The notes under the pieces are model-generated. The model made no database searches and was not told the origin of the DNA. It saw nothing but the letters and a program-made list of their open reading frames with translations. This document shows, piece by piece, positions 14,326-27,635 of a stretch of DNA of 64,000 bases. This DNA is from Bacteroidota bacterium (GTDB lineage Bacteria; Bacteroidota; Bacteroidia; NS11-12g; UBA9320). Numbering within the stretch: position 1 is the stretch's first letter; every line of letters begins with the position of its first letter. The translations under genes and the position numbers were made by a program. The stretch is taken from assembly GCA_947468275.1 (NCBI GenBank), contig CANIKO010000002.1:105363-169362 (forward strand), read 5' to 3'.

Positions 14326-14637
14326 TTAAACTGAAAATTCTAGTGTCAATTTTCCGCCAAGGCCTTCGCGAATAATTCGCATTAAGGTTCTTAATCGAAT
14401 ATCACTGGCATCATTTTCAATTCTTGAAATATAATTCTTTGTTGTACCAATTCGTAAAGCAAGTTCCTCTTGGGTTAAATGCTGCTTTTTTCGCGCCTCT
14501 TGTATGAGCACTCCAATTTTAAATGCTTCAAATTCTTCAGCATATTTTTCACGAGTTGGTGTACCTTTCTTTCCATATTTAATGTCAAGATGATCATCCC
14601 AATTCACTAGTTTATTTTGTTCATTTACCTTAATCAT
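14326..14637 (-). CDS. higA: HigA-like XRE-family HTH antitoxin
   Basis: 103 aa; HTH LTQEELALRIGTTKNYISRIEN; immediately downstream of the toxin-like gene. Confidence 0.7.
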   Translation of the reverse strand: MIKVNEQNKLVNWDDHLDIKYGKKGTPTREKYAEEFEAFKIGVLIQEARKKQHLTQEELALRIGTTKNYISRIENDASDIRLRTLMRIIREGLGGKLTLEFSV

Positions 14638-14648
14638 AATCTTATTAT

Positions 14649-14999
14649 TTATAGTCCTTTTGTTTCAAAATACAGTTGTTTTAATTTTTCAGCTCTATCA
14701 ATTTCTTGTTTGGGAGTTTTGTTTGACTTCTTTTGAAATCCATTAAAAAGTATAACCAAATTTCCCTTATCAAAACAGCAAAAAACTCTAAAGATATCGC
14801 TACCTACTTTTATTCTAATCTCATAAAGTCCATCGGTTCCTTCAATGTGTTTGAAAAATTTTTCAGGAATAATTTGCAATGTTCTTACTAGTCCGATGAC
14901 CCAATCTATTTTCCCCTGAACTTCGCTAGTCTGCTTATGGTAGAATTCCCAAAAATAATTTCCAAAGACAATAGTGCCTCGCAGATAATTTTCATTCAC
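14649..14999 (-). CDS. higB: HigB-like (RelE/ParE superfamily) toxin
   Basis: 116 aa; Gp49/HigB-like pattern (GLYEIRIKVGSDIFRVFCCFDKGNLVILFNGFQKK...); toxin-first order with an 11-bp gap to the antitoxin. Confidence 0.65.
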   Translation of the reverse strand: MNENYLRGTIVFGNYFWEFYHKQTSEVQGKIDWVIGLVRTLQIIPEKFFKHIEGTDGLYEIRIKVGSDIFRVFCCFDKGNLVILFNGFQKKSNKTPKQEIDRAEKLKQLYFETKGL

Positions 15000-15346: not shown

Positions 15347-16387
15347 ATGATTCTACGAGCTTATTTAGTAACCTTATGTTTGTTTTTTTGTATTACAGCA
15401 TCACCCCAGGTGGTAAAACTTACACAAAAATTTGATAGTTCAAAAACCCCACCCCGGCCTGATTATAGCAAAAATGCATCTTGGGCCGCACTTCCGTTTA
15501 TAAAAGATGAGGCGGATACTACACCGGGCTTAGGAATTTATAAAGACTTGCAAAGCAACGCAATTGCAGATATTTTTTTTATTCATCCTACAACGTATAC
15601 TTATAAACCTTTATCACCCAACCAATGGAATGGGGATATTAATGATGTACAATTGAACCAAAAAACAAATTCAGGAACGATTCGTTATCAAGCCTCCTTG
15701 TTTAATGGTGCGGGAAAAATCTATGCCCCATATTACAGACAAGCTCATTATTATTCTTATGTAACGAGTGATACACTTAGTGCAAGATTAGCTTTGGATG
15801 TGGCTTATTCCGATGTAAAAAAAGCATTTGAATTTTATTTAAAAAACTATAATAATGGCCGGCCAATAATAATTGCATCTCATAGTCAAGGTACTACACA
15901 TGCCATAAGATTGATGAAAGATTATTTTGATACAACTTACTTAATAAACCAACTTGTTTGCGCATATTTGGTTGGTATGCCAGTATATGATTCTGTTTTC
16001 ATCAAACTTAAACCTTGCCAAAATGATAATCAAACAGGATGTTATTGCAGCTGGAGAACTTATGCAGTGGGCTATTACCCAAAAAAATACATTAAACCTG
16101 GAAAATTTTCTGTGTGTACGAATCCTCTTACTTGGAAAACCAACGAGACTTATGCCTCAGCTGAACTAAATAGTGGTGGAATATTGCGCAATATGAATAC
16201 GGTTATACCTAAATTGTGTGATGCACAAATAGCTGATGGGGTATTAAGGATACATAAACCCAATTTTAAAGGCAATATATTTTTGAATATTAAAAATTAT
16301 CACATAGCCGATTATAATCTTTTCTATTCCAACGTTAGAGAAAATGCTATATTAAGAAAAGACACTTTCATTAAAAATAAAAGTTAA
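15347..16387 (+). CDS. Secreted DUF3089-like alpha/beta-hydrolase (lipase-like) protein
   Basis: Signal peptide; IIIASHSQGTTH resembles the lipase nucleophile elbow (xHSQG). Confidence 0.45.
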   Translation: MILRAYLVTLCLFFCITASPQVVKLTQKFDSSKTPPRPDYSKNASWAALPFIKDEADTTPGLGIYKDLQSNAIADIFFIHPTTYTYKPLSPNQWNGDINDVQLNQKTNSGTIRYQASLFNGAGKIYAPYYRQAHYYSYVTSDTLSARLALDVAYSDVKKAFEFYLKNYNNGRPIIIASHSQGTTHAIRLMKDYFDTTYLINQLVCAYLVGMPVYDSVFIKLKPCQNDNQTGCYCSWRTYAVGYYPKKYIKPGKFSVCTNPLTWKTNETYASAELNSGGILRNMNTVIPKLCDAQIADGVLRIHKPNFKGNIFLNIKNYHIADYNLFYSNVRENAILRKDTFIKNKS

Positions 16388-16396
16388 TCGTAAATC

Positions 16397-16804
16397 CTAC
16401 GGTTTAATAATTCCTTTATCCTTCAAAAGTTGAACCAATTCCGTAATATTTAGTGGTTTTGTCAAAAAAGCTATTACGGAAGGATATTTTAAGACTTTTT
16501 CATTATCACTCATTAGTATACTAGAGGAAAGCATAATAATATTAGTTTTTTCACGATTTTCAATTGGAAGTGTATTATATAGTTCCAAAAACTCAAAACC
16601 ATCCATTATCGGCATATGGATGTCAAGTAATATTAAATTAGGCCAATCTGCAGCACTTGCACTATGAAGATATTGGAATGCTTCATGAGAATCTTCAAAT
16701 TTTGTTGTTTTATTGGCAAGCTTATGAGCCTCAATAAATTTTTTATTAAGAAATAAATCTATAACATTATCATCAATCAACATTATAGAAAGATTATTTA
16801 TCAT
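16397..16804 (-). CDS. Stand-alone response-regulator receiver (REC) protein
   Basis: 135 aa; LMIDDNVID...LLDIHMPIMDG...; no output domain. Confidence 0.8.
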   Translation of the reverse strand: MINNLSIMLIDDNVIDLFLNKKFIEAHKLANKTTKFEDSHEAFQYLHSASAADWPNLILLDIHMPIMDGFEFLELYNTLPIENREKTNIIMLSSSILMSDNEKVLKYPSVIAFLTKPLNITELVQLLKDKGIIKP

Positions 16805-17886
16805 GGATTAATTTTATTTGGAATTATTATTTCAAAAGTAGTACCAACATGAGGAGTTGAGGTCACGGATATCGTACCTCCTATTTTATCTAATGATTCT
16901 TTTACAATATATAAACCGATACCTGACCCTTGCTTATTATTTGAAATTTGTGCACGATAGAACATTTTAAATATATTAGGCAGATGTTCAGGATTAATAC
17001 CTATTCCGCTATCTATAATTTGCAAATTAACCGATTCATTTTCGCTAACTATTTTAACCGTTACGGTATGTTGCTCCGAACTAGGCTTTCGATACTTAAT
17101 GGCATTTGATATAATATTTATCAAGATAACTCTTAATCGAAATGAATCACCAATAAATTCGCCTTTTTGTTTAACATCAGTCACAAACTTTATGGAATGA
17201 TCCTGATTTTTAAGCATATCAATTATTTCATGCAAAAGTTCATTAAAATTTAAATTTTCCAGTGATTCATCTGACCTGGAATTCTGATAATAATCAATAA
17301 TATTCCGAATATATTTATCTAATTTAAGAACACTATTTTCAATAATATCAAAGTATTCCTGATCTAAACTATCATCCATTTTGGCAAGTTGTACTACACC
17401 TAATATTGACATAAGTGGAGAACGGAGGTCATGCGAAGCACTATAAATAAAACGATTTAGTTCATCGTTAGTTTTCAGTAATTCTGTATTTTTCAATTTC
17501 AATTCTACACGACTTTTATAAATGTCGCTGCAGTTTTCCATTATCAAATTCAACTTTTCCCAATCCCAAGGTTTTTGAACATATTTGTTTACTTGCCCTC
17601 TATTTATAGCATCTATAACAGAATCTAAGTCGGCATGACCAGTAATTAATAATCGAACCGCGTCAGGATATATATCAATTGTTTTTTCTAAAAACTCAAT
17701 ACCAGTCATTACCGGCATTTTCTGATCGGTAATAATTATATTAATTTCAATATCCTTAAGCAAGCCAAAGGCTTCTAGAGCACCTTTGGCTGTATAAATC
17801 TGATACTGTCTTTTAAAATAAGCCTGAAATGATATCAGATTATTTTCTTCATCATCTACGTATAATACTTTTAGTTTTTCTAACAT
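16801..17886 (-). CDS. Hybrid REC-histidine kinase (N-terminal receiver, then HisKA and HATPase_c)
   Basis: VLYVDDEENNLISF...ITDQKMPVMTG (REC); H-box SHDLRSPL; N/G boxes ...NAIKY..., DSGIGI, GSGIGL. Confidence 0.8.
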   Translation of the reverse strand: MLEKLKVLYVDDEENNLISFQAYFKRQYQIYTAKGALEAFGLLKDIEINIIITDQKMPVMTGIEFLEKTIDIYPDAVRLLITGHADLDSVIDAINRGQVNKYVQKPWDWEKLNLIMENCSDIYKSRVELKLKNTELLKTNDELNRFIYSASHDLRSPLMSILGVVQLAKMDDSLDQEYFDIIENSVLKLDKYIRNIIDYYQNSRSDESLENLNFNELLHEIIDMLKNQDHSIKFVTDVKQKGEFIGDSFRLRVILINIISNAIKYRKPSSEQHTVTVKIVSENESVNLQIIDSGIGINPEHLPNIFKMFYRAQISNNKQGSGIGLYIVKESLDKIGGTISVTSTPHVGTTFEIIIPNKINP

Positions 17887-17897
17887 CTATTTTAATT

Positions 17898-20063
17898 TTA
17901 AGACAGAATAATATGAAGATTCATTGGCAATATTATTGTGATTTTAGTGCCAATTCCTGGTTCACTCATTATATCAATTTTTCCATGATGACTTTCCATT
18001 ATTCCAAATACAATCGACATTCCTAATCCTGTTCCTTCTCCAACATCTTTTGTAGTAAAAAATGGTTCAAATATCTTAGCCTGCACTTCTAGTGTCATCC
18101 CAGGTCCAGTATCTTCTACCGACACGCAAATAGTTTCATCTTTTACAAAACTAGAGATCGTAAGCCTGTGTTTTTCTTTTGTAGTGTCTTTATCCATGGC
18201 TTGAATTGCATTATTTATGATATTCATAAATACCTGATTTAACTTACCAGGATAGCATTCAATTTTAGGAATTTCTCCAAAGTGTTTAACAATCTCAATA
18301 TTAGGAGGTGTTATGCTTTTTAATAACACCATAGTAGACTCAATTCCTTGGTTTATATCAGCGAGTTTAATATCACTTGCATCCAAATGTGCAAAATTCT
18401 TTAGTCCTTTTACTATTTCGGCTGTTCTTTTAGCCCCATCTTCAATACCTGCGAGTAATGAATTAATTTCTTTTTTAACATAATCGATATCGATCTCTTT
18501 TTTGAATGATTCAATAGAAGTTAATTTTTCAGCTAAATTATCTTCAATGTTGATAGCTTCATATTTAGATAGAACTTCAAAAATATCAGCGATATCTAAT
18601 TGAAGTGGCTTAACATTGGCACTAACAAAGTTAATAGGATTATTAATTTCGTGCGCAATACCAGCCGTTAGCTGACCAAGAGATGCCATTTTCTCAACAG
18701 ACACTAATTGAGACTGTGCTTCCTTTAAATCAGTGATAGCTACTCCTAATTCATTGTTTTTAACTTCTAATTCCTCGGTTCGAACTAATACTTTTTGTTC
18801 TAATACAATATTTTGTTCTTTAATTAGTTTTTCATTTTCTTCTAAAGCCATTACTACCTCTGCCTGAGATAACTCTTTATCTTTTTTCAAGATATTAATA
18901 CGATCAGCAAGGGCAAATGACAGCAAAATAACCTCAATACCAGAACCAAACTGCATGGTATAGCGTGTTATATTATTATATGGCAAAATATGAAGATCTT
19001 TTAAAACAAATATTATAACTCCCGCCAAAAAAACAGACCATCCAATTAAAAAGAATCGTGCTTCTTGATTTCCTTGCCTGTATATTACTATACCAACAAT
19101 TAACATGAAGATGGAAACAGAAGAAGCTGTTATTGACATCAGTTTATAACTTAAACCATATTGCCCAGTGAAACTCATAAATATGGCAATTAGATATAAA
19201 ATTGTAAACAGAAAGGAGGAGTTGTAAACTTTTAAATTTCGGTTTTTTAGTTTTAAAAAATCTTTAAAAAACTCTAAACCGGCAATGCCTGCCAAAGAAG
19301 GAAAAAGAAATTGACTATGTATTTGTAACCAAGGTAAATTGGGCCAAATAAACTGAAATGGCAGCCCCATATTACTCGTTTGGGCTAACAATACGAATAC
19401 AATGTAAAATGAGTATACCAAATAGCTTTTTTCTCTAACGGCCCCGAAAATGAATAGGTTATACAGCAACATCACAATCATGATACCTATATAAATCCCC
19501 ACCGCAATATTTTTATATCCTGAAAATTCAAAAGTTGACTTGCTAGAGCCCATAAAAATTGGGAGCTGTAATATTTCCTTGGAAGTAATTTTTAAATAAT
19601 ATGTTTTCTCAGAACCATTTTCAATATTTATATCAAATAAATAATCAGGGGTAGAATATTGCCGCAATTTGAAAGACTGATATTCTCCCATTGAACTTGC
19701 GCAGTATTTATTAGTTTTTAAATCATTAAAATAAAATGTAACCTTATCTAAAATTGGCTGATTAACTTGTATAATAAGGTTATTTTCAGTCGAAATATTC
19801 TTAATTGTAATTCGAACCCAAAACGTAGAGGTTGACATTCCTAAATCTGGTACATCCTTTTCACTTCTCTTGAAATTTTTTGATTTTAAAATTTCGTCTA
19901 TGGTTAAATTATTGGTTTTATCTTCTAACAGATAAATATTTTTACCAATTTGTAAATTTCGAGTTGCATCGGAATAAATAACTTGTGCAAATAAGTTATT
20001 TGAAAGTCCAACTAATATCAATAAAACGACTAAAATACTTGAATATTTATTTTTTTCAATCAT
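17898..20063 (-). CDS. 7TMR-DISM sensor histidine kinase (periplasmic DISMED2-like domain, 7TM, HisKA, HATPase_c)
   Basis: Signal peptide, ~170-aa extracytoplasmic domain, seven predicted TM helices, coiled coil, H-box AHEINNPINF, ATPase motifs NAIQAM, DTGPGM, GTGLGM. Confidence 0.85.
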   Translation of the reverse strand: MIEKNKYSSILVVLLILVGLSNNLFAQVIYSDATRNLQIGKNIYLLEDKTNNLTIDEILKSKNFKRSEKDVPDLGMSTSTFWVRITIKNISTENNLIIQVNQPILDKVTFYFNDLKTNKYCASSMGEYQSFKLRQYSTPDYLFDINIENGSEKTYYLKITSKEILQLPIFMGSSKSTFEFSGYKNIAVGIYIGIMIVMLLYNLFIFGAVREKSYLVYSFYIVFVLLAQTSNMGLPFQFIWPNLPWLQIHSQFLFPSLAGIAGLEFFKDFLKLKNRNLKVYNSSFLFTILYLIAIFMSFTGQYGLSYKLMSITASSVSIFMLIVGIVIYRQGNQEARFFLIGWSVFLAGVIIFVLKDLHILPYNNITRYTMQFGSGIEVILLSFALADRINILKKDKELSQAEVVMALEENEKLIKEQNIVLEQKVLVRTEELEVKNNELGVAITDLKEAQSQLVSVEKMASLGQLTAGIAHEINNPINFVSANVKPLQLDIADIFEVLSKYEAINIEDNLAEKLTSIESFKKEIDIDYVKKEINSLLAGIEDGAKRTAEIVKGLKNFAHLDASDIKLADINQGIESTMVLLKSITPPNIEIVKHFGEIPKIECYPGKLNQVFMNIINNAIQAMDKDTTKEKHRLTISSFVKDETICVSVEDTGPGMTLEVQAKIFEPFFTTKDVGEGTGLGMSIVFGIMESHHGKIDIMSEPGIGTKITIILPMNLHIILS

Positions 20064-20766
20064 TCGATTTTATTTTATAAATCAAGTCATATTCAACCTC
20101 TACCTCGGTTTCTAAATAGATTTCAGTGGTTGTCTGAACTGGAATATCCCTCAATGACAACATCCGATTTTTATCATATTCATTTGCACTGGCAAGCGTT
20201 TCTGCATTCATTATACCTAATACTCTGGTAATATAATTATCATTAGGATAAGGGTATTCCCCCTTTAGCCCAAGATTAGGATTGACAATAAAACCTACCC
20301 GTTTAAACATCTCCATGGTGTATTCGGCACAAATGCCCATAAGGGTTTCAAACTTTAATTGATTGGTAGTTGATATCCCAGCCCTTGTCAACAATACACT
20401 TATTCCTATACCCGCTACTTTCTTAGAATTCCATAATCCACAAAGTTCGCCAATGCCACCATTTACTCTAAAATTTTTCACAATATCAAAAATAATGGGA
20501 TCCATCTTACCAATAGCTTTCTCTATTGGTAGATAGTTGTTTTCATCAGATATTTGAGCTCTAATGCCACCCACTATTTCACCAGTAGATTTAACTTCAG
20601 CTACAACACCATAGATGTTAGGATTTATCATCCATTCATTGTTATTGGTAGAGATATTAGTAACATTATAATCTTTCAAAACAGACACATGTCCTTCGAT
20701 ATACCTCATACAGGTATCTGGCTCATCCACAGCCCTAAAGGCCCTAAAAATTAATTTTTCATTCAT
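20056..20766 (-). CDS. Hypothetical protein with GNAT-acyltransferase-like motifs
   Basis: 236 aa; KKVAGIGISVLLTRAGI (motif-A-like) and YTMEMFKRVGFIV (motif-B-like Y..F.K.GF). Translationally coupled to both neighbours. Fold assignment is by eye only. Confidence 0.35.
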   Translation of the reverse strand: MNEKLIFRAFRAVDEPDTCMRYIEGHVSVLKDYNVTNISTNNNEWMINPNIYGVVAEVKSTGEIVGGIRAQISDENNYLPIEKAIGKMDPIIFDIVKNFRVNGGIGELCGLWNSKKVAGIGISVLLTRAGISTTNQLKFETLMGICAEYTMEMFKRVGFIVNPNLGLKGEYPYPNDNYITRVLGIMNAETLASANEYDKNRMLSLRDIPVQTTTEIYLETEVEVEYDLIYKIKSND

Positions 20767-23068
20767 TATTCCACTTGTAAAATGCCGCCTCCAATGGTCT
20801 TCTTACCGACTTTATTTTGGGAGTATCAGCCTTAGTTAATCTAAAAATCATTATATCACCGTTTCCAGGTGTTAATTTTAATATTTCTTCAAATTTAGGC
20901 CTTATGGCCCATAATTTTTTTTGCCCTTTCTCACTTATATTTTCTCCTTTTCCAAGCATTAATCGATTGTAAACAAACAACGATGCCGTAATCGGTTGAA
21001 ATGCCAAATCAATTAAATTTGCTTTTAACCAAACGCGTTCAATAATCCGACCTCCATTAAAATAATCGGTAAGACTTTGACCTGACATAGAAAGGATACC
21101 TACAGCGCCAGCAGAATCAACTAACTTTTTCGTTAATTTATTAAACGCTGCCCCGCCATTCCATTCATTTAATAATTCTATGACTCCAGCATTTTGAGCT
21201 ATTTTCAATCCCGCTTTTTCTGGATTGGTTAATTCCACAGTCCGAATATCCACACCATCTCGTCGCTGGTCATTTTCCTCTTTCGTCCATCTCATTTCAT
21301 CTGAAAAATCTGCTTGCCCTGCTTTTTCCAAAAGTCTAATAATTTCAAGTTCTCCAAGAATTTCACCAATATTAAATAAGTCTTCATCACTCGTAAAAAA
21401 ACGAAGATTGGCACCTTCCATCTCGTTGGCCACACTTATTAATTCTTGTAATTTTTCACTTTCTATATTTGGCCGCTTTACTATATTTCTATTTGTATGT
21501 CGAATCTCAATGGCCTCGGCTAAATTAAGAAGTTTAGGATCGGTTGCTTTTTCGGGAAAAAACTTCACTTGGGCAACCAATTGTTTAATATTTTTATCTG
21601 GAAATACTTCGATTTTTGAATCCAAATGCAATTGTTTGGCCTTAAGTACAGCATTTTCAATAGCCGAACCAAGTGCAAGGCAAGCTGAAACATTTCCGTA
21701 ACCTAAAAACACCTCACTTCCTTCTAGAGCATAATAAGCCAATAATGTATTATTCTTCAATGCAAATTTCCAAGGCTGATAATTGCCTCCTGAAGGCGCA
21801 AGAATTGCGGCCTTAACAATTTGACTAACTTCTGAATCACTCAATGAGGCCTGTCCACTTTCTAATTCAATATTAATATTGTTTGTAATGCCTACAACAT
21901 CGGTATACTCATAAGGATCAACCCAAACATAAGGTTCCATTTCAGGCTTTTTATCCCCAATTAGCTCTTCTATATCAATATGGTAACGTCCTGATTCAGA
22001 GAATTGTTTCAATAAAATTCGCCGACTAACATCGGCTGTAATGCCCCCTCCCATTGCTACTGAACTGGCTAATTGTGGCCATGTATTAATGGATTGCTCA
22101 ATTTCCAACATCGATGCCTTAATTCGCAGCGAAGAGGTTTCTAAACCTAAGATATCTAAAATATATGGAAACTTTTCTTCATTAGTTTTTAAATTTTTAA
22201 GGGTATCCAAATCAAGATGATCAACCAATCCGTGCAATACACTGCGATTAGGCTCTAAATCAAATCGTTCAACATCTACCATACAACGATCACTGGTCTC
22301 CATAATTACAGCTATTCCAAGCTCTCTTGCCTTATAACGACTTAATATTTTTATTTCAAAACCATCCGATTCCTCAATCAGTAAATCAAGCTTTCCTCCA
22401 TCGAGAAAAAAGGATTCCATATTTGACTCTTGAAGTCCTTCTAAAAAACAACTCACCTTTATAAAAGGATCAATTTCGGCAATTTCTCTTGCCACAACAT
22501 TTACCTTATAGGTACCTAGGTTATGAATGCCTGTTCGTATTCTATTATAATTAGTGAGCTCTAAAATATCAAAATCGGCTAATCTAATTTCGCTGCAACT
22601 TCTTTCCATTGCAATGGTTATCGCTACCGATTGGCCAACAGAAAGGCCCACGACCCCTATTATTTTTTTTCTTAGTATTTCGCGTTCTTCTTTGGTTATT
22701 TTATATTGGTTTCTGTTGGTTCTAATCTCAATAAATTCCTCTTCATCTGGTATATGAACCAATCTGTTGGACCAAGGATAATACACCCACACCCCGTATT
22801 CTTCTATTGATAATGGTTCAATATGTTTATAGGTTGCTTCAATTAATTCGTCATCAGTGAATTTTTTAGATGGATATTTTATTTTAATTAATTGCTTAAC
22901 TTGATCAAATAAAAAATCACAAACAATTATTCCAGGAGTCAATAATAATTGCTCAAGGTTTTCCTTTTGTTTTAAATCTCCAATTCGGTAAAACAAAGGT
23001 TTTACCAATAAATCGTTTTTAATCTGTTCTTGTCTGTTCTTTAATAGTATATCGCTCAATCGTGTCAT
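20759..23068 (-). CDS. E1-like (ThiF/MoeB-family) domain fused to tandem nitroreductase-family domains
   Basis: 769 aa; IIGVVGLSVGQSVAITIA...IRLADFDILELTNYNRI aligns to the MoeB motif in this same window (GAGGLGCP...VDFDVVDLTNLHRQ). Downstream is ILAPSGGNYQPWKF, a nitroreductase FMN motif, plus a second nitroreductase-like half. Confidence 0.7.
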   Translation of the reverse strand: MTRLSDILLKNRQEQIKNDLLVKPLFYRIGDLKQKENLEQLLLTPGIIVCDFLFDQVKQLIKIKYPSKKFTDDELIEATYKHIEPLSIEEYGVWVYYPWSNRLVHIPDEEEFIEIRTNRNQYKITKEEREILRKKIIGVVGLSVGQSVAITIAMERSCSEIRLADFDILELTNYNRIRTGIHNLGTYKVNVVAREIAEIDPFIKVSCFLEGLQESNMESFFLDGGKLDLLIEESDGFEIKILSRYKARELGIAVIMETSDRCMVDVERFDLEPNRSVLHGLVDHLDLDTLKNLKTNEEKFPYILDILGLETSSLRIKASMLEIEQSINTWPQLASSVAMGGGITADVSRRILLKQFSESGRYHIDIEELIGDKKPEMEPYVWVDPYEYTDVVGITNNINIELESGQASLSDSEVSQIVKAAILAPSGGNYQPWKFALKNNTLLAYYALEGSEVFLGYGNVSACLALGSAIENAVLKAKQLHLDSKIEVFPDKNIKQLVAQVKFFPEKATDPKLLNLAEAIEIRHTNRNIVKRPNIESEKLQELISVANEMEGANLRFFTSDEDLFNIGEILGELEIIRLLEKAGQADFSDEMRWTKEENDQRRDGVDIRTVELTNPEKAGLKIAQNAGVIELLNEWNGGAAFNKLTKKLVDSAGAVGILSMSGQSLTDYFNGGRIIERVWLKANLIDLAFQPITASLFVYNRLMLGKGENISEKGQKKLWAIRPKFEEILKLTPGNGDIMIFRLTKADTPKIKSVRRPLEAAFYKWNNE

Positions 23069-23322
23069 AAACCTAATTAATTATAGTAGAATTTCGGGCA
23101 AATAAAATACCTATAATCCACATTTAATCAACCATTAATATGAGTGTGACCAATAAAATTGAAAATAACTTTTTAATACATTTTTGTAACATTTTTTTGT
23201 TGCAAAACATTTTTTATAATTATATTTGAATTATGATATTTGTTTTTAAATAGAAATATCAATATAAACATTATATAAAATGATACTATTGGTAAAATTT
23301 TATATAAATAAAAAAAGAAAAA

Positions 23323-23790
23323 TTGGAAGAAAATCAGAAAATTCACGTCTTATATGTAGATGACGAAGAAAACAATTTAATTGCTTTCAAGGCATCATTT
23401 AGACGTGATTTTACAATATTTACTGCTATTTCTGCATTGGAAGCTAAAGAAATATTGGCCAAAAATGAGATCCATATTCTTATTACCGATCAAAGAATGC
23501 CTGTAACCACTGGTTCGGAACTTTTGGCGCAAGCCGTTAAAGATTACCCTGATCAGATAAGAATACTTCTTACCGGTTTTTCAGACATGGAAGCATTAAA
23601 GGATGCCATTAACTTAGGACAAATTTATTGCTATTTACAAAAACCATGGAATGACGAGGAGCTTAAAACTACAATAAACAAAGCCTTTGAAATTTACCGC
23701 ACAAAACGCGAAAAAGATGAATTAACAGGGACATTAAAAACTTCGAATGAACAACTTGAATTTTATTTAAGGCAAAAACTTTTGTCTTAA
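23323..23790 (+). CDS. Stand-alone REC protein, paralog of the REC domain in the hybrid kinase
   Basis: 155 aa; HVLYVDDEENNLIAF...ITDQRMPVTTG...YLQKPW, about half identical to the N-terminus of 16801..17886. Confidence 0.8.
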   Translation: MEENQKIHVLYVDDEENNLIAFKASFRRDFTIFTAISALEAKEILAKNEIHILITDQRMPVTTGSELLAQAVKDYPDQIRILLTGFSDMEALKDAINLGQIYCYLQKPWNDEELKTTINKAFEIYRTKREKDELTGTLKTSNEQLEFYLRQKLLS

Positions 23791-23791
23791 T

Positions 23792-25087
23792 TTATCTCGA
23801 ATTTCGATAAAATTCATTAATCAATATAACCGACTCATTTAGCTCTTCTTTATTAGTATCAGGCAAAGATTGCATCTTGGTATAGTTGAATAATATCTTA
23901 TCTATTTTTTCTAATGAAACCTTGCTTAAGTAAGCTAATTTCGTTTTATCTTCGGTATTATTATTCTTTAAATTAATACCAAATTTTGTTCTTATAAAAT
24001 TGAAAAAATAACGAAATTTTTGCTCTGCTATGTTTTTGTGATTACCATCGGCCAAGTATAACTTTGTGATGGTTTGAGCAAATTCAATTGAAGTATTCTT
24101 GTTTTTTCCAATAACCAAAATTGACCTTTGTTTTCGTTTAAAACTAAATATACTGAACAAAATAATAGCTCCTAAAAAACTATACCATGCATACTGGAAT
24201 GAACGAAACGAAAGCAAAACCTCAAATGGACTTTCATTAGTTTTTGCTTCATTATCTATTACCCCTTCACTTGCAAAAGTATTGACATGCCAGTAGATAT
24301 TTCCAGGTTCAAGATGTAAAAACACCTTTTGAGCATATATAAAAACATCTTTTTTGCGAAGATAATAATTAGTAAAAACTAATGGTGAGGCATATAAATG
24401 CAACCACCCTTCGCCCACCTTTATTTTGATATAATTGGTATATTTTTCATGATCTGATAATTCAAGATTGCCAATTTTATAATAATCATAGTCTAAATTA
24501 TTCAATGATTGGTTTTCAAAAAATTCTTCAGAAAAATAACCCGCTTGCATTGGAATATAAGTTTGAAGATACTTAAGTTTAATAATAGGCGTGTCATTAA
24601 GTTTAAGTCCAGGATGCAACAATTGCAATTTGTATTGCATGCATTGAATTTGTGATAAAGCATTAGCCGAACTATTTACCGATTTTAATTCAGGCCGAAG
24701 CATACTATCCAAAAAATACTCAGATACTTCGTTTGATGCGATAAAAACCTGATTACCTTTTCTAATGAAATCATATAATGACGAAACGGTTGATTGATCA
24801 GGGACAAAACTGTATCCACTATAAAAATAGATATTATTCTTGCTCTTAAGAGTATTAAAATCGCTATTGTATCTTAGGGGTTCTTCTATTTTTATAAAGT
24901 CCTTTTCAGGATATAGACTCTTTGTAAGTTTAAATAACAACTCATTTCCATAGGGTGAACCACTGGATTGATTATAATTTTGACTCCAATTATAAGTAGG
25001 ACTTTTACTGTACAGATAATAAAAAAAAGCAGCTAAGCAAATCAATACAGAGAAAGCAATAAGAATGGGCCATTTTTTTTTAAACAT
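23792..25087 (-). CDS. Hypothetical membrane-anchored protein (DUF4350-like architecture)
   Basis: N-terminal TM, large soluble region, C-terminal TM (WYSFLGAIILFSIFSF); family call is from memory of architecture only. Confidence 0.3.
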   Translation of the reverse strand: MFKKKWPILIAFSVLICLAAFFYYLYSKSPTYNWSQNYNQSSGSPYGNELLFKLTKSLYPEKDFIKIEEPLRYNSDFNTLKSKNNIYFYSGYSFVPDQSTVSSLYDFIRKGNQVFIASNEVSEYFLDSMLRPELKSVNSSANALSQIQCMQYKLQLLHPGLKLNDTPIIKLKYLQTYIPMQAGYFSEEFFENQSLNNLDYDYYKIGNLELSDHEKYTNYIKIKVGEGWLHLYASPLVFTNYYLRKKDVFIYAQKVFLHLEPGNIYWHVNTFASEGVIDNEAKTNESPFEVLLSFRSFQYAWYSFLGAIILFSIFSFKRKQRSILVIGKNKNTSIEFAQTITKLYLADGNHKNIAEQKFRYFFNFIRTKFGINLKNNNTEDKTKLAYLSKVSLEKIDKILFNYTKMQSLPDTNKEELNESVILINEFYRNSR

Positions 25088-25790
25088 ACTGATTGGTATC
25101 TAATACTAAAAAAGCTTGTTTAAAAAGTTTATCAATCGACTGATAATGAAACTCATCTATCAAACTATCGCCATACCATACTGATTCATAAATTAGTGCT
25201 AACTGCCTAAAATACCAGTGTATTTCACTCCCCAAAATCTGCTGAGTATAGTCCCTATTCGTACTTTCTCGCTTCCATTTTATATATTTTTTTTGGTTTA
25301 ATAATTGAAGGAACGTTAAAAAATTTAATCGTGTGGCCAATCTATAATCTCCATTTTTTAAAGCTCCAATTAATAATTGGTCAATTTCAAGGTCGTTTAT
25401 ATCTTCAGGTTCATTTAGGATATCAAAGTTTACCGATTTTTTTTGAAGAGACTTATTGCCCAAAAAACCATTGCGAACTAATAAGTAAACAACTAAAGCT
25501 ATTAATAAAAAAATCAGGAGGTATGCCACTAAACTCAAAAATGCAGAACTGCCTGAGAAAAAAGGTTTTCCAAGATTTGGAGTCCTACTTTTTGTTTTAT
25601 TTAATTTTGGCGTTTTATATTTATAATCCTCTTTTAGTTTTTCCCAACGCTTGTTATCCAAGCTATTTCCACCTGGTTTACTTTGCAAATAATCGTTAGT
25701 AACATCGGCTGAATAACCTTGATTGAATGATAAGATAAATATTAAAACAAGGTTCCACCTTAAATTTAAAAGATTATTTAATGCCTGCAT
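25080..25790 (-). CDS. Hypothetical single-pass membrane protein (DUF4129-like architecture)
   Basis: Signal/TM, central TM (LVAYLLIFLLIALVVYLLV), C-terminal soluble domain. Confidence 0.3.
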   Translation of the reverse strand: MQALNNLLNLRWNLVLIFILSFNQGYSADVTNDYLQSKPGGNSLDNKRWEKLKEDYKYKTPKLNKTKSRTPNLGKPFFSGSSAFLSLVAYLLIFLLIALVVYLLVRNGFLGNKSLQKKSVNFDILNEPEDINDLEIDQLLIGALKNGDYRLATRLNFLTFLQLLNQKKYIKWKRESTNRDYTQQILGSEIHWYFRQLALIYESVWYGDSLIDEFHYQSIDKLFKQAFLVLDTNQYV

Positions 25791-25811
25791 TCAGTAATTA
25801 TAATTTAATCC

Positions 25812-27635
25812 TTATTTTGACCATACTTTTTCTAAGCGGGCTTTTAAGCCACTGCCGGTTATTTTTTCTTTTGCACTAAAATAATGCAATGTATTACCAA
25901 ATAAATACAAGGGCAACATTACAAAAAGCAGCGCCATACCAACAATTAAAACAGCCAATTTCTCTAATTCATTTATCATCGGACCTGACAATTTCAATCC
26001 GTTACTTATGGCTTCGATAATAAAATTAAGAATGGGAGATGAAACAGAAAGATAAAAAATAAACAATAGAATGAGTAGGGTTAAATTGAGAACGGCATTT
26101 GCTAAAATTGTTTTAAAGAAATTTTTTATTCCAGGAATAATACCAAATAATCCAGCATTAAATATTCCCGAATTCATAGAAATACAAAGCGGGAAGATTA
26201 CAAAAAAATATAAGATAAAGTAAAAAATTCCATCACAATAAAAATAAGAGCCCAGTGTTAAAAACATGAAATACCAGGAACCTATAAATCGAATTAATTT
26301 ACTCCTGGAGGATAAATAATTCTTACTCTGTTTGAAAAAAAAATAACCTTGAAACAAAACCGGAAACATTGAAAACAGAACCACAAAAACTGGCCAGATC
26401 TTGTAATATCCATCTCTAAACCATACGTTTATTTTTAAAAGTTTTATTATTTCAAAAATATTATCGGGCACCCCAAAAAACTGATATTCCAAATGCCGCG
26501 ATTGAGAAAAATAAAGTGCAATAATCATTACAGTGCTTAGTAATAAAGAGGATTTAATTATTACTCCAATATACCTCTTCCACACTCTAAATGTATCCGC
26601 AACCACTTCCCCGGCAGTTTTAATATCATCCAATACAATTTCATAAGGGGGATTAGGGGGCAACTCATTTTCTTCAATCAGATGCCCGGCTTTGCTAAAC
26701 TTATACCATGGCAGCCAAACAAAATAAAACAATATAAAAAAAAGTGAGCTTATAATTAATAAAGCTTTTAGATAAAGCGGGGCGTTGGATTGACCTGTAA
26801 TAAATGCTTCGATAAATGCGGCAGTAAGGGTTAGCGGGATTACTGTAAAAAGAATTTTGATACCCTTGATGGCTGAAATACGGAAAGCTTGGCCTCGCGA
26901 ATAAGTGCCGGGAAAAAGTAAACCTTTGCCAAATATCAAACCTGCTGTGGCCGATAATATCATGGTAAATATTTCTAATGTGCCATGCAGCCATATCGTT
27001 AATACTGTAAATGTGAAATAACCTGTTCCATAAAAAAAATACTGAAACACTCCTACCATCACTCCGTTGTAGGCCAAAACAAACAAGGTGCCTATGGCAA
27101 AAAACAAACCAGTTACAAAAGTTAGCATATCCACCCGCAGGTTATTGTAGGCAATTCGAAAGAATGAGGAAAGTTTATCCCCTTCGGCATACACATTCAT
27201 AGGTTTTCCTTCTTTAATATTTTGGTTGGTCATTTCTACATATTGGTCGCCCAATATTTGGCGGGCAAACCCCGGCTGATGCCTGCTACTAAACACTCCT
27301 ACTATAAATGTGAGAACAAATACAAAAAAACAAACTAGCAACTCCTTGCGGGCCGAATACATAATGGCGGGAAATTCTTCTTTAAAAAATTTGCTTAAAA
27401 ACGATTGTTTTCGTTTTCTATTGGTATAAAGCTTTAAAAAAACCTGTTGTGCCAATCCGTTTAAATACACCCTTACCGAGCGGTTGGGATAAAAAGACCG
27501 TGAATAAGAAAGGTCATCGGTTACTTGAATAAATAAATCATTGAGTTCATCAGGCTGTGTTGATTTACCTTTCAACACCGTTTCATAATGTTTCCAATTT
27601 TCTTTGTTTTGGTTTATGAAGGATGATTCTTTCAA
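25812..27635 (-). CDS. Stage II sporulation protein M-like (DUF95) polytopic membrane protein with extended C-terminal membrane domain
   Basis: 607 aa; N-terminal half resembles SpoIIM/DUF95 (VLAYNGVMVGVF..., IFTMILSATAGL, AAFIEAF); the C-terminal half adds ~6 more TM helices. Confidence 0.4.
   Translation of the reverse strand: MKESSFINQNKENWKHYETVLKGKSTQPDELNDLFIQVTDDLSYSRSFYPNRSVRVYLNGLAQQVFLKLYTNRKRKQSFLSKFFKEEFPAIMYSARKELLVCFFVFVLTFIVGVFSSRHQPGFARQILGDQYVEMTNQNIKEGKPMNVYAEGDKLSSFFRIAYNNLRVDMLTFVTGLFFAIGTLFVLAYNGVMVGVFQYFFYGTGYFTFTVLTIWLHGTLEIFTMILSATAGLIFGKGLLFPGTYSRGQAFRISAIKGIKILFTVIPLTLTAAFIEAFITGQSNAPLYLKALLIISSLFFILFYFVWLPWYKFSKAGHLIEENELPPNPPYEIVLDDIKTAGEVVADTFRVWKRYIGVIIKSSLLLSTVMIIALYFSQSRHLEYQFFGVPDNIFEIIKLLKINVWFRDGYYKIWPVFVVLFSMFPVLFQGYFFFKQSKNYLSSRSKLIRFIGSWYFMFLTLGSYFYCDGIFYFILYFFVIFPLCISMNSGIFNAGLFGIIPGIKNFFKTILANAVLNLTLLILLFIFYLSVSSPILNFIIEAISNGLKLSGPMINELEKLAVLIVGMALLFVMLPLYLFGNTLHYFSAKEKITGSGLKARLEKVWSK

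What the first reader, a model, noticed from the sequence alone, without database searches (positions are those of the whole stretch)
20056..20766. Orphan 236-aa protein with GNAT-like motifs A and B, sandwiched between the E1-NR enzyme and the sensor kinase
Segments KKVAGIGISVLLTRAGI and YTMEMFKRVGFIV resemble the acyl-CoA-binding motif A and the Y..F.K.GF motif B of GNAT acyltransferases. Small GNAT-fold enzymes make N-acyl signals (LuxI-type or N-acyl amino acid synthases). They also give self-immunity in E1-dependent peptide antibiotic systems, as MccE does in microcin C. Either role would fit a produce-and-sense locus.
Basis: inference. Interest (0 to 1): 0.5.

Follow-up and report, generated by a model that had tools for sequence, protein, structure and literature searches.

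The report
Lipid-amino-acid synthase wired to a sensor kinase
This 236-residue protein is very probably an enzyme that joins a fatty acid to an amino acid, feeding the neighbouring enzyme that makes oxazolone lipids. In Bacteroidota its gene almost always sits beside the same membrane sensor kinase, which offers a testable candidate receptor for molecules whose role is still unknown.

Summary
The ORF at 20056-20766 (minus strand) is real. It matches no Pfam or NCBIfam model, but it is not an orphan: relatives occur in 408 species genomes, almost all Bacteroidota.

The upstream E1-nitroreductase gene belongs to the Rv1355c family. Rv1355c is TrzS, shown in 2025 to turn N-acyl-tryptophan into an oxazolone, and its partner acyltransferase is TrzA. 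A profile comparison links the 236-aa family to TrzA-like proteins (95% probability) but not to the FeeM Pfam family (0.6%).

So this is most likely the N-acyl amino acid synthase of a Bacteroidota oxazolone pathway. The MccE-like immunity reading is rejected.

The new observation is the kinase link. A 7TMR-DISM histidine kinase follows the gene in 68 of 68 close loci and 36 of 38 divergent loci, despite gene-order changes and swaps of the tailoring enzyme. A synthase-receptor signalling pair is plausible but untested.

The parts
20056..20766 (-). 236-aa GNAT-fold protein, the predicted N-acyl amino acid synthase (TrzA/OxzA analogue)
20374..20424 (-). GNAT motif A region, residues 115-131 (KKVAGIGISVLLTRAGI). 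K116-x-x-G119-x-G121 is the predicted CoA pyrophosphate-binding loop between beta4 and alpha3.
   Evidence: Translation. Secondary structure of the model. G119, G121, S123 and R128 are invariant in 48 homologues.
20284..20322 (-). GNAT motif B region, residues 149-161 (YTMEMFKRVGFIV), on alpha4 after beta5. Y149 is a candidate general acid.
   Evidence: Translation. Model. Y149, M153, F154, V157, G158 and F159 are invariant.
20428..20457 (-). Strand beta4, GIGELCGLWN (residues 104-113). E107 is a candidate catalytic base.
   Evidence: Translation. E107 is one of only four residues invariant across the 53-member divergent alignment, where it is E102 in P0165 numbering. It aligns with the invariant Glu of TrzA-like proteins.
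20759..23068 (-). [quoted passage not shown]
   Evidence: NCBIfam NF005901 'Rv1355c family' equivalog, 757 bits against a cut-off of 476. Pfam ThiF and Nitroreductase. The ThiF-core Asp residues and the APSGGN.QPW flavin motif are conserved with actinobacterial homologues. The function of Rv1355c was shown in PMC12856293.
17898..20063 (-). 721-aa 7TMR-DISM sensor histidine kinase (DISMED2 + 7TM + HisKA + HATPase), the candidate receptor
   Evidence: Pfam. It lies immediately downstream of the 236-aa gene in 68/68 close loci and 36/38 divergent loci.
16801..17886 (-). 361-aa hybrid receiver-histidine kinase, the next step of the phosphorelay
   Evidence: Pfam Response_reg + HisKA + HATPase_c. 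A match covering more than half its length is present in 54/80 close and 41/80 divergent loci.
16397..16804 (-). 135-aa stand-alone receiver protein, the last gene of the run; it overlaps the previous gene by 4 nt
   Evidence: Pfam Response_reg. Present in 45/80 close loci.
23323..23790 (+). 155-aa stand-alone receiver protein, divergently transcribed from the E1-NR gene
   Evidence: Pfam Response_reg. A homologue is present in 70/80 close loci and 56/80 divergent loci.

Best explanation
The 236-aa protein is a GNAT-fold N-acyl amino acid synthase. It probably takes an acyl group from acyl-CoA and puts it on the alpha-amino group of a free amino acid, most likely an aromatic one as in the known systems. 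E107 is the candidate base, Y149 the candidate acid, and K116-x-x-G119-x-G121 the candidate CoA-binding loop.

The N-acyl amino acid would then pass to the co-translated upstream enzyme. Its ThiF-like half would adenylate the free carboxylate and close the 5(4H)-oxazolone ring. Its flavin (nitroreductase-family) half would desaturate the C-alpha/C-beta bond with O2, giving an N-acyl oxazolone of the tyrazolone/tryptazolone type.

What is shown here: the fold, the profile homology to TrzA-like proteins, the family assignment of the E1-NR enzyme, and the conserved operon. What is shown elsewhere for homologues: the chemistry of OxzAB, TyzACB and TrzAS. What is inferred: that this protein does the same chemistry, the identity of the amino acid and acyl chain, and the catalytic residues.

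A further, weaker inference concerns the kinase. The lipid product, or its N-acyl amino acid precursor, may be the ligand of the co-transcribed 7TMR-DISM histidine kinase. The locus would then be a signal-synthase/receptor-kinase module.
For: Fold:
- The AF2 model has pLDDT 89.6.
- Foldseek puts FeeM first (TM 0.78 normalised to the target), then BjaI and MesI.
- These are the same structural neighbours that Grigg et al. reported for TyzA (PMC10404671, read).

Neighbouring enzyme:
- It scores 757 bits on the NCBIfam Rv1355c-family equivalog model.
- Rv1355c is TrzS and Rv1356c is TrzA, an acyl-CoA:tryptophan N-acyltransferase (PMC12856293).

Homology:
- The hypothetical protein next to Rv1355c-family genes in Rhodococcus and Mycolicibacterium defines an actinobacterial family.
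- That family aligns to the 236-aa family with hhalign probability 95%, E 3.6e-8, over 165 columns. GG(I/V)R.Q, the two Glu residues, W112, R128 and YP..Y are shared.

Linkage:
- E1 is adjacent in 67/69 close loci and E1-NR in 62/69. In divergent loci the figures are 32/38 and 28/38, in both gene orders.
- A natural E1-X fusion exists (P0235).
- A FeeM-ThiF-nitroreductase triple fusion exists in Nitratidesulfovibrio vulgaris.

Sub-threshold GNAT sequence signal appears in 16/48 members.

Evidence for a free-carboxylate product and for the kinase link:
- Where E1 is absent, the gene between X and the kinase is an ICMT-family methyltransferase, a class I SAM methyltransferase or an FAD_binding_4 oxidase.
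- The kinase stays constant: 68/68 and 36/38.
Against: - No biochemical data exist for any member of this family.
- No Pfam or NCBIfam GNAT, FeeM or autoinducer-synthase model reaches its threshold.
- Profile comparison with the bona fide FeeM family is negative at 0.6%, so the NAS assignment rests on the fold plus the more distant TrzA link.
- The TrzA link has 95% probability at about 19% identity. It was made to TrzA-like proteins of Rhodococcus and Mycolicibacterium, not to the assayed M. tuberculosis protein itself.
- The gene order here (E1-NR then acyltransferase) is the reverse of oxzAB and trzAS.
- Some lineages keep X and the kinase but lack the nitroreductase half (L017, L042, L061, L076) or lack E1 altogether (L011, L091, L101 and others). 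The final product is therefore not always an unsaturated oxazolone, and X's product may have a role of its own.
- For the sensing step there is no ligand-binding evidence.
- Distances of X correlate equally with the sensor and catalytic halves of the kinase (r 0.51 and 0.50). Co-evolution gives no specific support for a ligand-receptor relationship.
Confidence: 0.72

Rival explanations
1. The enzymology is the same (N-acyl amino acid synthase plus oxazolone synthetase), but the product is not sensed by the kinase. Instead the phosphorelay responds to some other envelope or environmental cue. The lipid is an output, for example a membrane or stress-protective metabolite, or an antimicrobial. 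Alternatively the genes are simply co-regulated.
For: - The published work links oxazolones to stress: antibiotic induction in proteobacteria, and oxidative-stress and macrophage phenotypes of tyz mutants.
- Tryptazolones accumulate inside cells rather than in the supernatant.
- 7TMR-DISM kinases have an extracytoplasmic DISMED2 domain. From general knowledge, this domain is associated with carbohydrate or Ca2+ sensing (RetS, LadS).
- The co-evolution test was non-specific.
Against: - The cluster has no DNA-binding response regulator that could make the enzymes a transcriptional output.
- The enzymes are co-transcribed with, and upstream of, the kinase, rather than forming a separately regulated operon.
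- The kinase stays constant while the tailoring enzyme is swapped. That pattern is typical of synthase-receptor pairs.
- N-acyl-tryptophan intermediates are exported to the supernatant in the characterised system.
Confidence: 0.3
2. The protein is a LuxI-type acyl-homoserine-lactone synthase. It would use S-adenosylmethionine plus acyl-ACP or acyl-CoA to make an AHL that the kinase senses, by analogy with LuxM/LuxN.
For: LasI, TofI, RpaI, MesI, BjaI and EsaI are among the best structural matches. The gene lies next to a multi-pass membrane histidine kinase.
Against: - None of 48 family members matches Pfam Autoind_synth even at E <= 1.
- The best structural match is FeeM, an amino acid N-acyltransferase.
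- The sequence relatives are TrzA-like amino acid acyltransferases.
- The obligate partner, a ThiF-like enzyme, needs a free carboxylate next to the amide. An AHL lacks one.
- No LuxR-type gene is present in the locus.
Confidence: 0.05
3. The protein is an MccE/RimL-like self-immunity acetyltransferase. It would detoxify an E1-made peptide-nucleotide antibiotic of the microcin C type.
For: An E1-family enzyme is adjacent and the protein has a GNAT fold.
Against: - The E1 is an equivalog-level member of the Rv1355c/TrzS family. That family acts on small N-acyl amino acids and carries a flavin oxidase domain (PMC12856293). It is not an MccB-type enzyme.
- No precursor-peptide, exporter or peptidase genes appear in the conserved neighbourhood.
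Confidence: 0.03
4. The protein acylates a protein or another non-amino-acid amine, for example a lysine or the N-terminus of the kinase or receiver proteins, or a polyamine. It would act as a post-translational regulator of the phosphorelay.
Against: - The best matches are small-molecule long-chain acyltransferases with the extended FeeM/LuxI topology. They align 167-183 residues, against about 135-165 for most of the protein and other short-chain acetyltransferases ranked below them.
- The family is homologous to TrzA-like enzymes.
- The alternative neighbours are small-molecule tailoring enzymes: methyltransferases and an FAD oxidase.
Confidence: 0.05

Closest known systems
TrzA/TrzS (Rv1356c/Rv1355c) N-acyl tryptazolone pathway of Mycobacterium tuberculosis, M. 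smegmatis and Rhodococcus jostii (Kleetz et al., J Biol Chem 2025, PMC12856293)
   Same: - The neighbouring enzyme has the same two-domain ThiF-cyclase/flavin-oxidase build and is an NCBIfam Rv1355c-family equivalog.
- The partner is a roughly 250-aa acyltransferase with no Pfam model (0 families at E <= 1) that is profile-homologous to the 236-aa family (95%).
- Both loci are tight operons adjacent to signal-transduction genes. A GAF-GGDEF-EAL gene overlaps the trzS homologue in Mycolicibacterium, and a GGDEF gene lies next to it in Rhodococcus.
   Different: - Different phylum: Bacteroidota against Actinomycetota.
- About 19% identity over the aligned acyltransferase region, and about 32% for the E1-NR.
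- The gene order is reversed in this window.
- The signalling partner is a 7TMR-DISM histidine kinase phosphorelay, not c-di-GMP turnover enzymes.
- Substrates are unknown.
OxzA/OxzB oxazolone synthetase system of Pseudoalteromonas rubra and other Proteobacteria (de Rond et al., bioRxiv 10.1101/2020.06.11.147165); TyzACB of M. tuberculosis (Grigg et al. 2023, PMC10404671)
   Same: [quoted passage not shown]
- TyzA's nearest structures (FeeM, BjaI) are the same as those found here.
   Different: - oxzAB is described as a stand-alone two-gene operon in alpha-, beta- and gammaproteobacteria, with no kinase reported.
FeeM-type N-acyl amino acid synthases (Pfam PF21926; PDB 2G0B)
   Different: - There is no sequence-level membership. 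Only 1 of 48 members touches PF21926, at E 0.057, and profile-profile probability is 0.6%.
- FeeM is described as acyl-carrier-protein dependent. The motif A loop here suggests a CoA donor.
Autoinducer synthase / membrane receptor-kinase gene pairs: LuxM-LuxN, CqsA-CqsS, RpfF-RpfC (from general knowledge)
   Same: A small-molecule lipid-like signal synthase gene lies directly next to a multi-pass membrane histidine kinase that feeds a multi-step phosphorelay. There is no DNA-binding regulator in the cluster. The pairing is conserved while details of the chemistry vary.
   Different: The protein families are unrelated: a different synthase fold or family, and a 7TMR-DISM kinase rather than a LuxN/CqsS-type sensor. 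No evidence of ligand binding or density dependence exists here.

Membership tests
GNAT (GCN5-related N-acyltransferase) fold superfamily | Mixed alpha/beta core in the order beta1-alpha1-alpha2-beta2-beta3-beta4-alpha3-beta5-alpha4-beta6 | tested here: met
GNAT (GCN5-related N-acyltransferase) fold superfamily | Motif A pyrophosphate-binding loop (Q/R)-x-x-G-x-(G/A) between beta4 and alpha3 | tested here: met
   K116-V-A-G119-I-G121 follows strand 105-113 and precedes helix 122-136. G119 and G121 are invariant. Lys replaces the usual Gln/Arg.
GNAT (GCN5-related N-acyltransferase) fold superfamily | Match to a Pfam GNAT model above its gathering score | tested here: not met
   Only sub-threshold hits: Acetyltransf_1 in 16/48 members, best E 4e-4. 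The window protein itself has none.
N-acyl amino acid synthases of oxazolone pathways (TrzA / TyzA / OxzA) | Sequence homology to a characterised member's family | tested here: met
   hhalign of the 236-aa family (A1) against actinobacterial TrzA-like proteins (A2) gives probability 95%, E 3.6e-8, over 165 columns. A2 members sit directly upstream of Rv1355c-family genes, followed by GGDEF-EAL, as in M. tuberculosis. The comparison was not made against TyzA or OxzA themselves.
N-acyl amino acid synthases of oxazolone pathways (TrzA / TyzA / OxzA) | Gene adjacent to, or fused with, a ThiF-like cyclase and a nitroreductase-family flavin oxidase | tested here: met
   The window gene overlaps the E1-NR gene by 8 nt. 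E1 is adjacent in 67/69 close loci and E1-NR in 62/69. In divergent loci the figures are 32/38 and 28/38. An E1-X fusion exists (P0235).
N-acyl amino acid synthases of oxazolone pathways (TrzA / TyzA / OxzA) | FeeM / AHL-synthase-like three-layer fold | tested here: met
   The same neighbours are reported for TyzA.
N-acyl amino acid synthases of oxazolone pathways (TrzA / TyzA / OxzA) | Acyl-CoA-dependent N-acylation of a free L-amino acid | not testable with these tools
   This needs an enzyme assay. Only the CoA-type motif A loop speaks for the donor.
N-acyl amino acid synthases of oxazolone pathways (TrzA / TyzA / OxzA) | Acyltransferase gene upstream of the cyclase/oxidase gene (the oxzAB and trzAS order) | tested here: not met
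   The window order is E1-NR then X. The canonical order X then E1-NR occurs in 9 of 38 divergent loci, so the order is variable within the family.
FeeM family (Pfam PF21926) | Match to the family HMM or profile | tested here: not met
   1/48 members at E 0.057. hhalign against 27 bona fide FeeM-domain proteins gives probability 0.6%.
LuxI-type AHL synthases (Pfam PF00765 Autoind_synth) | Match to the family HMM | tested here: not met
   0/48 members at E <= 1.
LuxI-type AHL synthases (Pfam PF00765 Autoind_synth) | Conserved SAM-binding N-terminal residues; lactone product | not tested
   No residue-level structural alignment was available. The product needs an assay.
MccE / RimL-type immunity acetyltransferase of microcin C-like systems | Partner E1 of MccB type acting on a ribosomal heptapeptide, with a precursor gene in the cluster | tested here: not met
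   The partner is an Rv1355c-family equivalog with a flavin oxidase domain. No conserved extra genes lie between the divergent receiver gene and the E1 gene.
Rv1355c / TrzS oxazolone synthetase (for the upstream neighbour) | NCBIfam NF005901 equivalog score above its cut-off; ThiF + FDO didomain | tested here: met
   757.5 bits against a cut-off of 476, covering positions 7-717 of the 722-position model. The conserved ThiF Asp residues and the flavin motif are retained.
Signal synthase / receptor histidine kinase pair | Conserved adjacency of synthase and membrane kinase across lineages | tested here: met
   68/68 close loci and 36/38 divergent loci, through gene-order changes and tailoring-enzyme swaps.
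Signal synthase / receptor histidine kinase pair | The product binds and modulates the kinase; extracellular accumulation | not testable with these tools
   The distance-matrix test showed no sensor-specific co-evolution, which is inconclusive.

The most novel reading that the evidence does not exclude
The 236-aa family and its co-transcribed 7TMR-DISM kinase form a widespread cell-to-cell or self-signalling system in Bacteroidota. The synthase would make an N-acyl amino acid. A swappable tailoring enzyme (ThiF-nitroreductase, ThiF alone, a methyltransferase or an FAD oxidase) would give it a lineage-specific head group. The seven-helix membrane domain of the kinase would be its cognate receptor. 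This would identify the first receptor for N-acyl oxazolones or N-acyl amino acids in bacteria, and a native autoinducer chemistry for a phylum with no established one.
Probability: 0.35. Interest if true: 0.85.

Novelty: new variant of a known kind. Interest (0 to 1): 0.6.

Why it matters
The papers that established oxazolone biosynthesis (2020-2025) state that the physiological role of these lipids is unresolved, and they only speculate that the lipids are signals. The published systems come from Pseudomonadota, Actinomycetota and Planctomycetota.

Here a previously unannotated acyltransferase family extends the pathway to Bacteroidota. More importantly, it is nearly always paired with one specific type of membrane sensor kinase, even when gene order and tailoring enzyme change. 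That provides a concrete receptor candidate.

The system also occurs in culturable hosts: Pedobacter steynii DSM 19110, P. duraquae DSM 19034, P. panaciterrae LMG 23400 and P. psychroterrae. The signalling hypothesis can therefore be tested by genetics and ligand-response assays.

The finding also gives a functional prediction for a family of at least 595 sequence clusters, whose members are labelled 'hypothetical protein' in every source annotation seen.

Tried and rejected
- Sequence searches of the protein and its profile against Pfam, NCBIfam and PDB sequences gave only chance-level hits: Bromo_TP, an FKBP isomerase and STAGA subunit gamma. The TrzA-like profile also found nothing in PDB sequences.
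- The afdb50 fold library was not available.
- The MccE-type immunity and LuxI-type AHL synthase readings were considered and rejected, as set out under the rival explanations.
- A direct relationship to the FeeM Pfam family was tested with a 27-sequence profile and was negative at 0.6%. The same was true for TrzA-like against FeeM, at 0.04%. These also serve as negative controls for the 95% TrzA match.
- The N-terminal domain of the N. vulgaris 989-aa fusion showed no similarity to the 236-aa family.
- The sigma-70 promoter and terminator scan of 16200-23900 found no more sites than in shuffled sequence. The scan is not suited to Bacteroidota promoters.
- DUF3089, next to the operon here and in L091, is not a conserved neighbour: 0 of 160 loci.
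- A mirror-tree / partial Mantel test on 113 loci asked whether X co-evolves specifically with the sensor half of the kinase. It correlates equally with the sensor and catalytic halves (r 0.51 and 0.50; partial r 0.40 and 0.39), so the test does not discriminate.
- The 53-sequence divergent alignment was too variable to seed a metagenome scan, so a narrower one was used.


Full report
**1. The observation**

The ORF at 20056..20766 on the minus strand encodes 236 residues. Its ATG overlaps the stop codon of the upstream 769-aa gene (20759..23068) in the sequence ATGAATGA. Its stop overlaps the ATG of the downstream 721-aa gene (17898..20063) in ATGATTGA. The three genes are therefore packed as tightly as genes can be.

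Downstream on the same strand come a 361-aa receiver-kinase hybrid and a 135-aa receiver. A 155-aa receiver gene is transcribed divergently upstream.

The protein has no significant match in Pfam, NCBIfam or PDB sequences. It is far from orphan, though:
- 374 homologous clusters at 90% identity.
- 595 clusters at 50% identity with E <= 0.001.
- Relatives in 408 species-representative genomes. Almost all are Bacteroidota (Pedobacter, Cytophagaceae, Chitinophagaceae, Cryomorphaceae and many MAGs), and all are labelled 'hypothetical protein'.

An alignment of 48 homologues is strongly conserved, with 64% mean column identity and 45 invariant positions.

**2. The fold**

An AlphaFold2 model built on that alignment is confident: pLDDT 89.6, pTM 0.88.

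- The acyl-homoserine-lactone synthases LasI (15.7), TofI (15.2) and RpaI (15.2).

Foldseek independently puts FeeM first (TM 0.78, normalised to the target), then the CoA-dependent AHL synthases BjaI and MesI.

It contains K116-x-x-G119-x-G121, with both glycines invariant. E107, on strand beta4, is one of only four residues invariant across a 53-member alignment of the most divergent relatives.

**3. The neighbour and the literature**

The upstream protein scores 757 bits on NCBIfam NF005901, 'Rv1355c family protein', an equivalog model with a cut-off of 476. A literature search for Rv1355c led to two papers from the Eltis laboratory and one from the Moore laboratory.

- OxzA/OxzB of Pseudoalteromonas rubra. 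An N-acyltransferase makes N-acyl-tyrosine from acyl-CoA. The ThiF-nitroreductase di-domain enzyme OxzB then converts it, with ATP, to an oxazolone.
- TrzA/TrzS. Rv1356c N-acylates tryptophan with short acyl-CoAs. Rv1355c cyclises the product (ATP, ThiF domain) and then desaturates it (O2, flavin domain) to an N-acyl tryptazolone.

[quoted passage not shown] Bacteroidota are not among them.

**4. Is the 236-aa protein related to TrzA?**

A tblastn search of the window's E1-NR protein against plasmids found Rv1355c-family genes in Rhodococcus and mycobacterial plasmids. In Rhodococcus qingshengii the adjacent gene encodes a 252-aa hypothetical protein.

That protein has 408 homologues in mycolic-acid bacteria, some named N-acetyltransferase by UniRef. 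In Mycolicibacterium thermoresistibile a member lies directly upstream of a 738-aa ThiF-nitroreductase gene, which is overlapped by a GAF-GGDEF-EAL gene. This is the Rv1356c-Rv1355c-Rv1354c arrangement described for M. tuberculosis.

Profile-profile comparison of the 236-aa family with this TrzA-like family gives 95% probability, E 3.6e-8, over 165 columns. The GG(I/V)R.Q strand, both conserved glutamates, W112, R128 and the YP..Y segment all align.

As controls, I compared both families with 27 true FeeM-domain proteins. These gave 0.6% and 0.04%. The family is therefore a distant sequence relative of TrzA specifically, and a fold relative of FeeM and LuxI.

The E1-NR enzyme keeps every Asp of the ThiF core that is invariant in the actinobacterial homologues, and also the APSGGN.QPW flavin motif.

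**5. Gene neighbourhoods**

*Close relatives.* These are 80 genome loci with 49-71% identity. Where the flank is long enough to judge:
- A ThiF domain lies just upstream in 67 of 69 loci.
- The full ThiF-nitroreductase lies upstream in 62 of 69.
- A 7TMR-DISM histidine kinase begins within 300 nt downstream in 68 of 68.

*Divergent relatives.* These are 80 metagenome loci with 30-44% identity. The 38 with ample flanks fall into these arrangements:

| Arrangement | Loci |
|---|---|
| E1NR > X > HK | 17 |
| X > E1NR > HK | 9 |
| X > other > HK | 6 |
| X > E1 > HK | 3 |
| E1 > X > HK | 1 |
| E1NR > X, no kinase | 2 |

The 'other' gene is a class I SAM methyltransferase or an FAD_binding_4 oxidase. 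A further locus has an ICMT-family carboxyl methyltransferase in that position. One genome has two tandem copies of X and no E1.

*Fusions.* There are natural fusions of ThiF with X (P0235). In Nitratidesulfovibrio vulgaris a single 989-aa protein combines FeeM, ThiF and nitroreductase domains.

Two conclusions follow:
- X and the ThiF enzyme work on the same molecule. The fusions and the conserved adjacency in both orders show this.
- The most constant partner of X is the kinase, while the enzyme acting after X is interchangeable.

Because E1 activates a carboxylate and ICMT-type enzymes methylate one, the variants fit a product of X with a free carboxylate, that is, an N-acyl amino acid. This last step is inference.

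**6. Mechanism proposed**

- Shown here: the fold, the conserved motifs, the homology, the family of the partner enzyme and the operon structure.
- Shown elsewhere for homologues: the acyl-CoA plus amino acid reaction, the ATP-dependent cyclisation and the O2-dependent desaturation.
- Inferred: that this protein N-acylates an amino acid from acyl-CoA, with the motif A loop, E107 as base and Y149 as acid. Also inferred: that the E1-NR turns the product into an unsaturated N-acyl oxazolone, and which amino acid and chain length are used.
- More weakly inferred: that the lipid is the ligand of the co-transcribed seven-helix kinase.

Several points favour the sensing step:
- The cluster has no DNA-binding regulator.
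- Synthase next to membrane kinase is, from general knowledge, the layout of LuxM-LuxN, CqsA-CqsS and RpfF-RpfC.
- N-acyl-tryptophans are exported in the characterised system.
- Actinobacteria show a parallel association of the same pathway with c-di-GMP signalling genes.

Two points count against it. There is no binding evidence. My co-evolution test was also non-specific: X correlates equally with the sensor and catalytic halves of the kinase.

**7. Rivals**

- LuxI-type AHL synthase. No member matches the Autoind_synth model, and an AHL offers no carboxylate for the E1.
- MccE-like immunity enzyme. The E1 is of the small-molecule TrzS family, and RimL/MccE-type structures are not among the best matches.
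- Protein acetyltransferase acting on the phosphorelay. This cannot be excluded, but it fits neither the closest folds nor the small-molecule tailoring enzymes.
- The serious rival concerns only the last step. The lipid may be an output or a stress metabolite rather than the kinase's ligand.

**8. Novelty and verdict**

The enzyme pair is a known kind that was recently characterised. Four things appear to be undescribed in the searchable literature:
- A Pfam-less acyltransferase family filling the N-acyl amino acid synthase role.
- Its presence across Bacteroidota.
- The variable gene order and interchangeable tailoring enzyme.
- The near-invariant coupling to a 7TMR-DISM phosphorelay.

I rate this a new variant of a known kind, with moderate to good interest. 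It turns the open question of what oxazolones and N-acyl amino acids are for into an experiment with a named receptor candidate in culturable bacteria.

Noticed in passing
L172:3228-6197 (Nitratidesulfovibrio vulgaris Hildenborough plasmid pDV, WP_011176612.1): A 989-aa protein annotated only as 'ThiF family adenylyltransferase' is a triple fusion of a FeeM N-acyl amino acid synthase domain (150 bits), ThiF and nitroreductase. It would be a whole oxazolone pathway in one polypeptide. It lies next to three PEP-CTERM proteins.
   Followed up: partly
L091:5001-9660; L101, L110, L149, L152, L167 (about 6800-7570); L156:1205-2833; L164:6629-8335: In some lineages the gene between the acyltransferase and the 7TMR-DISM kinase is not a ThiF enzyme. 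It is an ICMT/PEMT-family membrane methyltransferase, a class I SAM methyltransferase or an FAD_binding_4 oxidase. This suggests different head-group modifications of the same lipid scaffold.
   Followed up: partly
L011:7282-8699: Two tandem paralogues of the 236-aa gene (230 and 232 aa) precede the kinase, and no E1-nitroreductase gene is in the locus.
   Followed up: partly
L017:6880-7989 (complete genome CP012155.1); also L042, L061, L076: The ThiF-like enzyme lacks the nitroreductase half (369 aa), yet it keeps its position between the divergent receiver gene and the acyltransferase. The expected product would be a saturated, chemically reactive 5(4H)-oxazolone, unless an unlinked oxidase exists.
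   Followed up: partly
P0216 (L088:269-1981) and P0203: Members of the family are fused behind a TIR domain (570 aa) or leucine-rich repeats (662 aa). These architectures are reminiscent of conflict or immunity proteins. The contigs are too short to show context.
   Followed up: partly
L085:5001-9869 (Mycolicibacterium thermoresistibile) and L084:1910-6058 (Rhodococcus qingshengii plasmid): The actinobacterial trzA/trzS homologues are followed by an overlapping GAF-GGDEF-EAL gene, or are flanked by a GGDEF gene. The same pathway is thus tied to a different signalling system in another phylum. On the Rhodococcus plasmid the trzA-like gene is divergent from trzS rather than upstream of it.
   Followed up: partly
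window 14326-14999 (minus strand): An adjacent pair of small genes (116 aa with Pfam Gp49; 103 aa with HTH_19/HTH_3) looks like a HigB/HigA-type toxin-antitoxin module. It lies about 1.4 kb beyond the end of the phosphorelay operon.
   Followed up: no
window 23792-27635 (minus strand): A run of three membrane-protein genes lies beside the divergent receiver gene. They are a 431-aa protein with no Pfam hit, a 236-aa protein with a faint DUF4129 hit, and a 607-aa protein with SpoIIM-like and DUF8413 hits. The 431-aa gene is not conserved next to the module in other genomes: 1 of 80 loci.
   Followed up: no
L104, L116, L120 (downstream of X, about 6810-9050): In the few loci where E1NR > X is not followed by the kinase, the next gene encodes a DUF1800 protein of about 710 aa. 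After that comes a gene whose product has a twin-arginine-like signal sequence.
   Followed up: no
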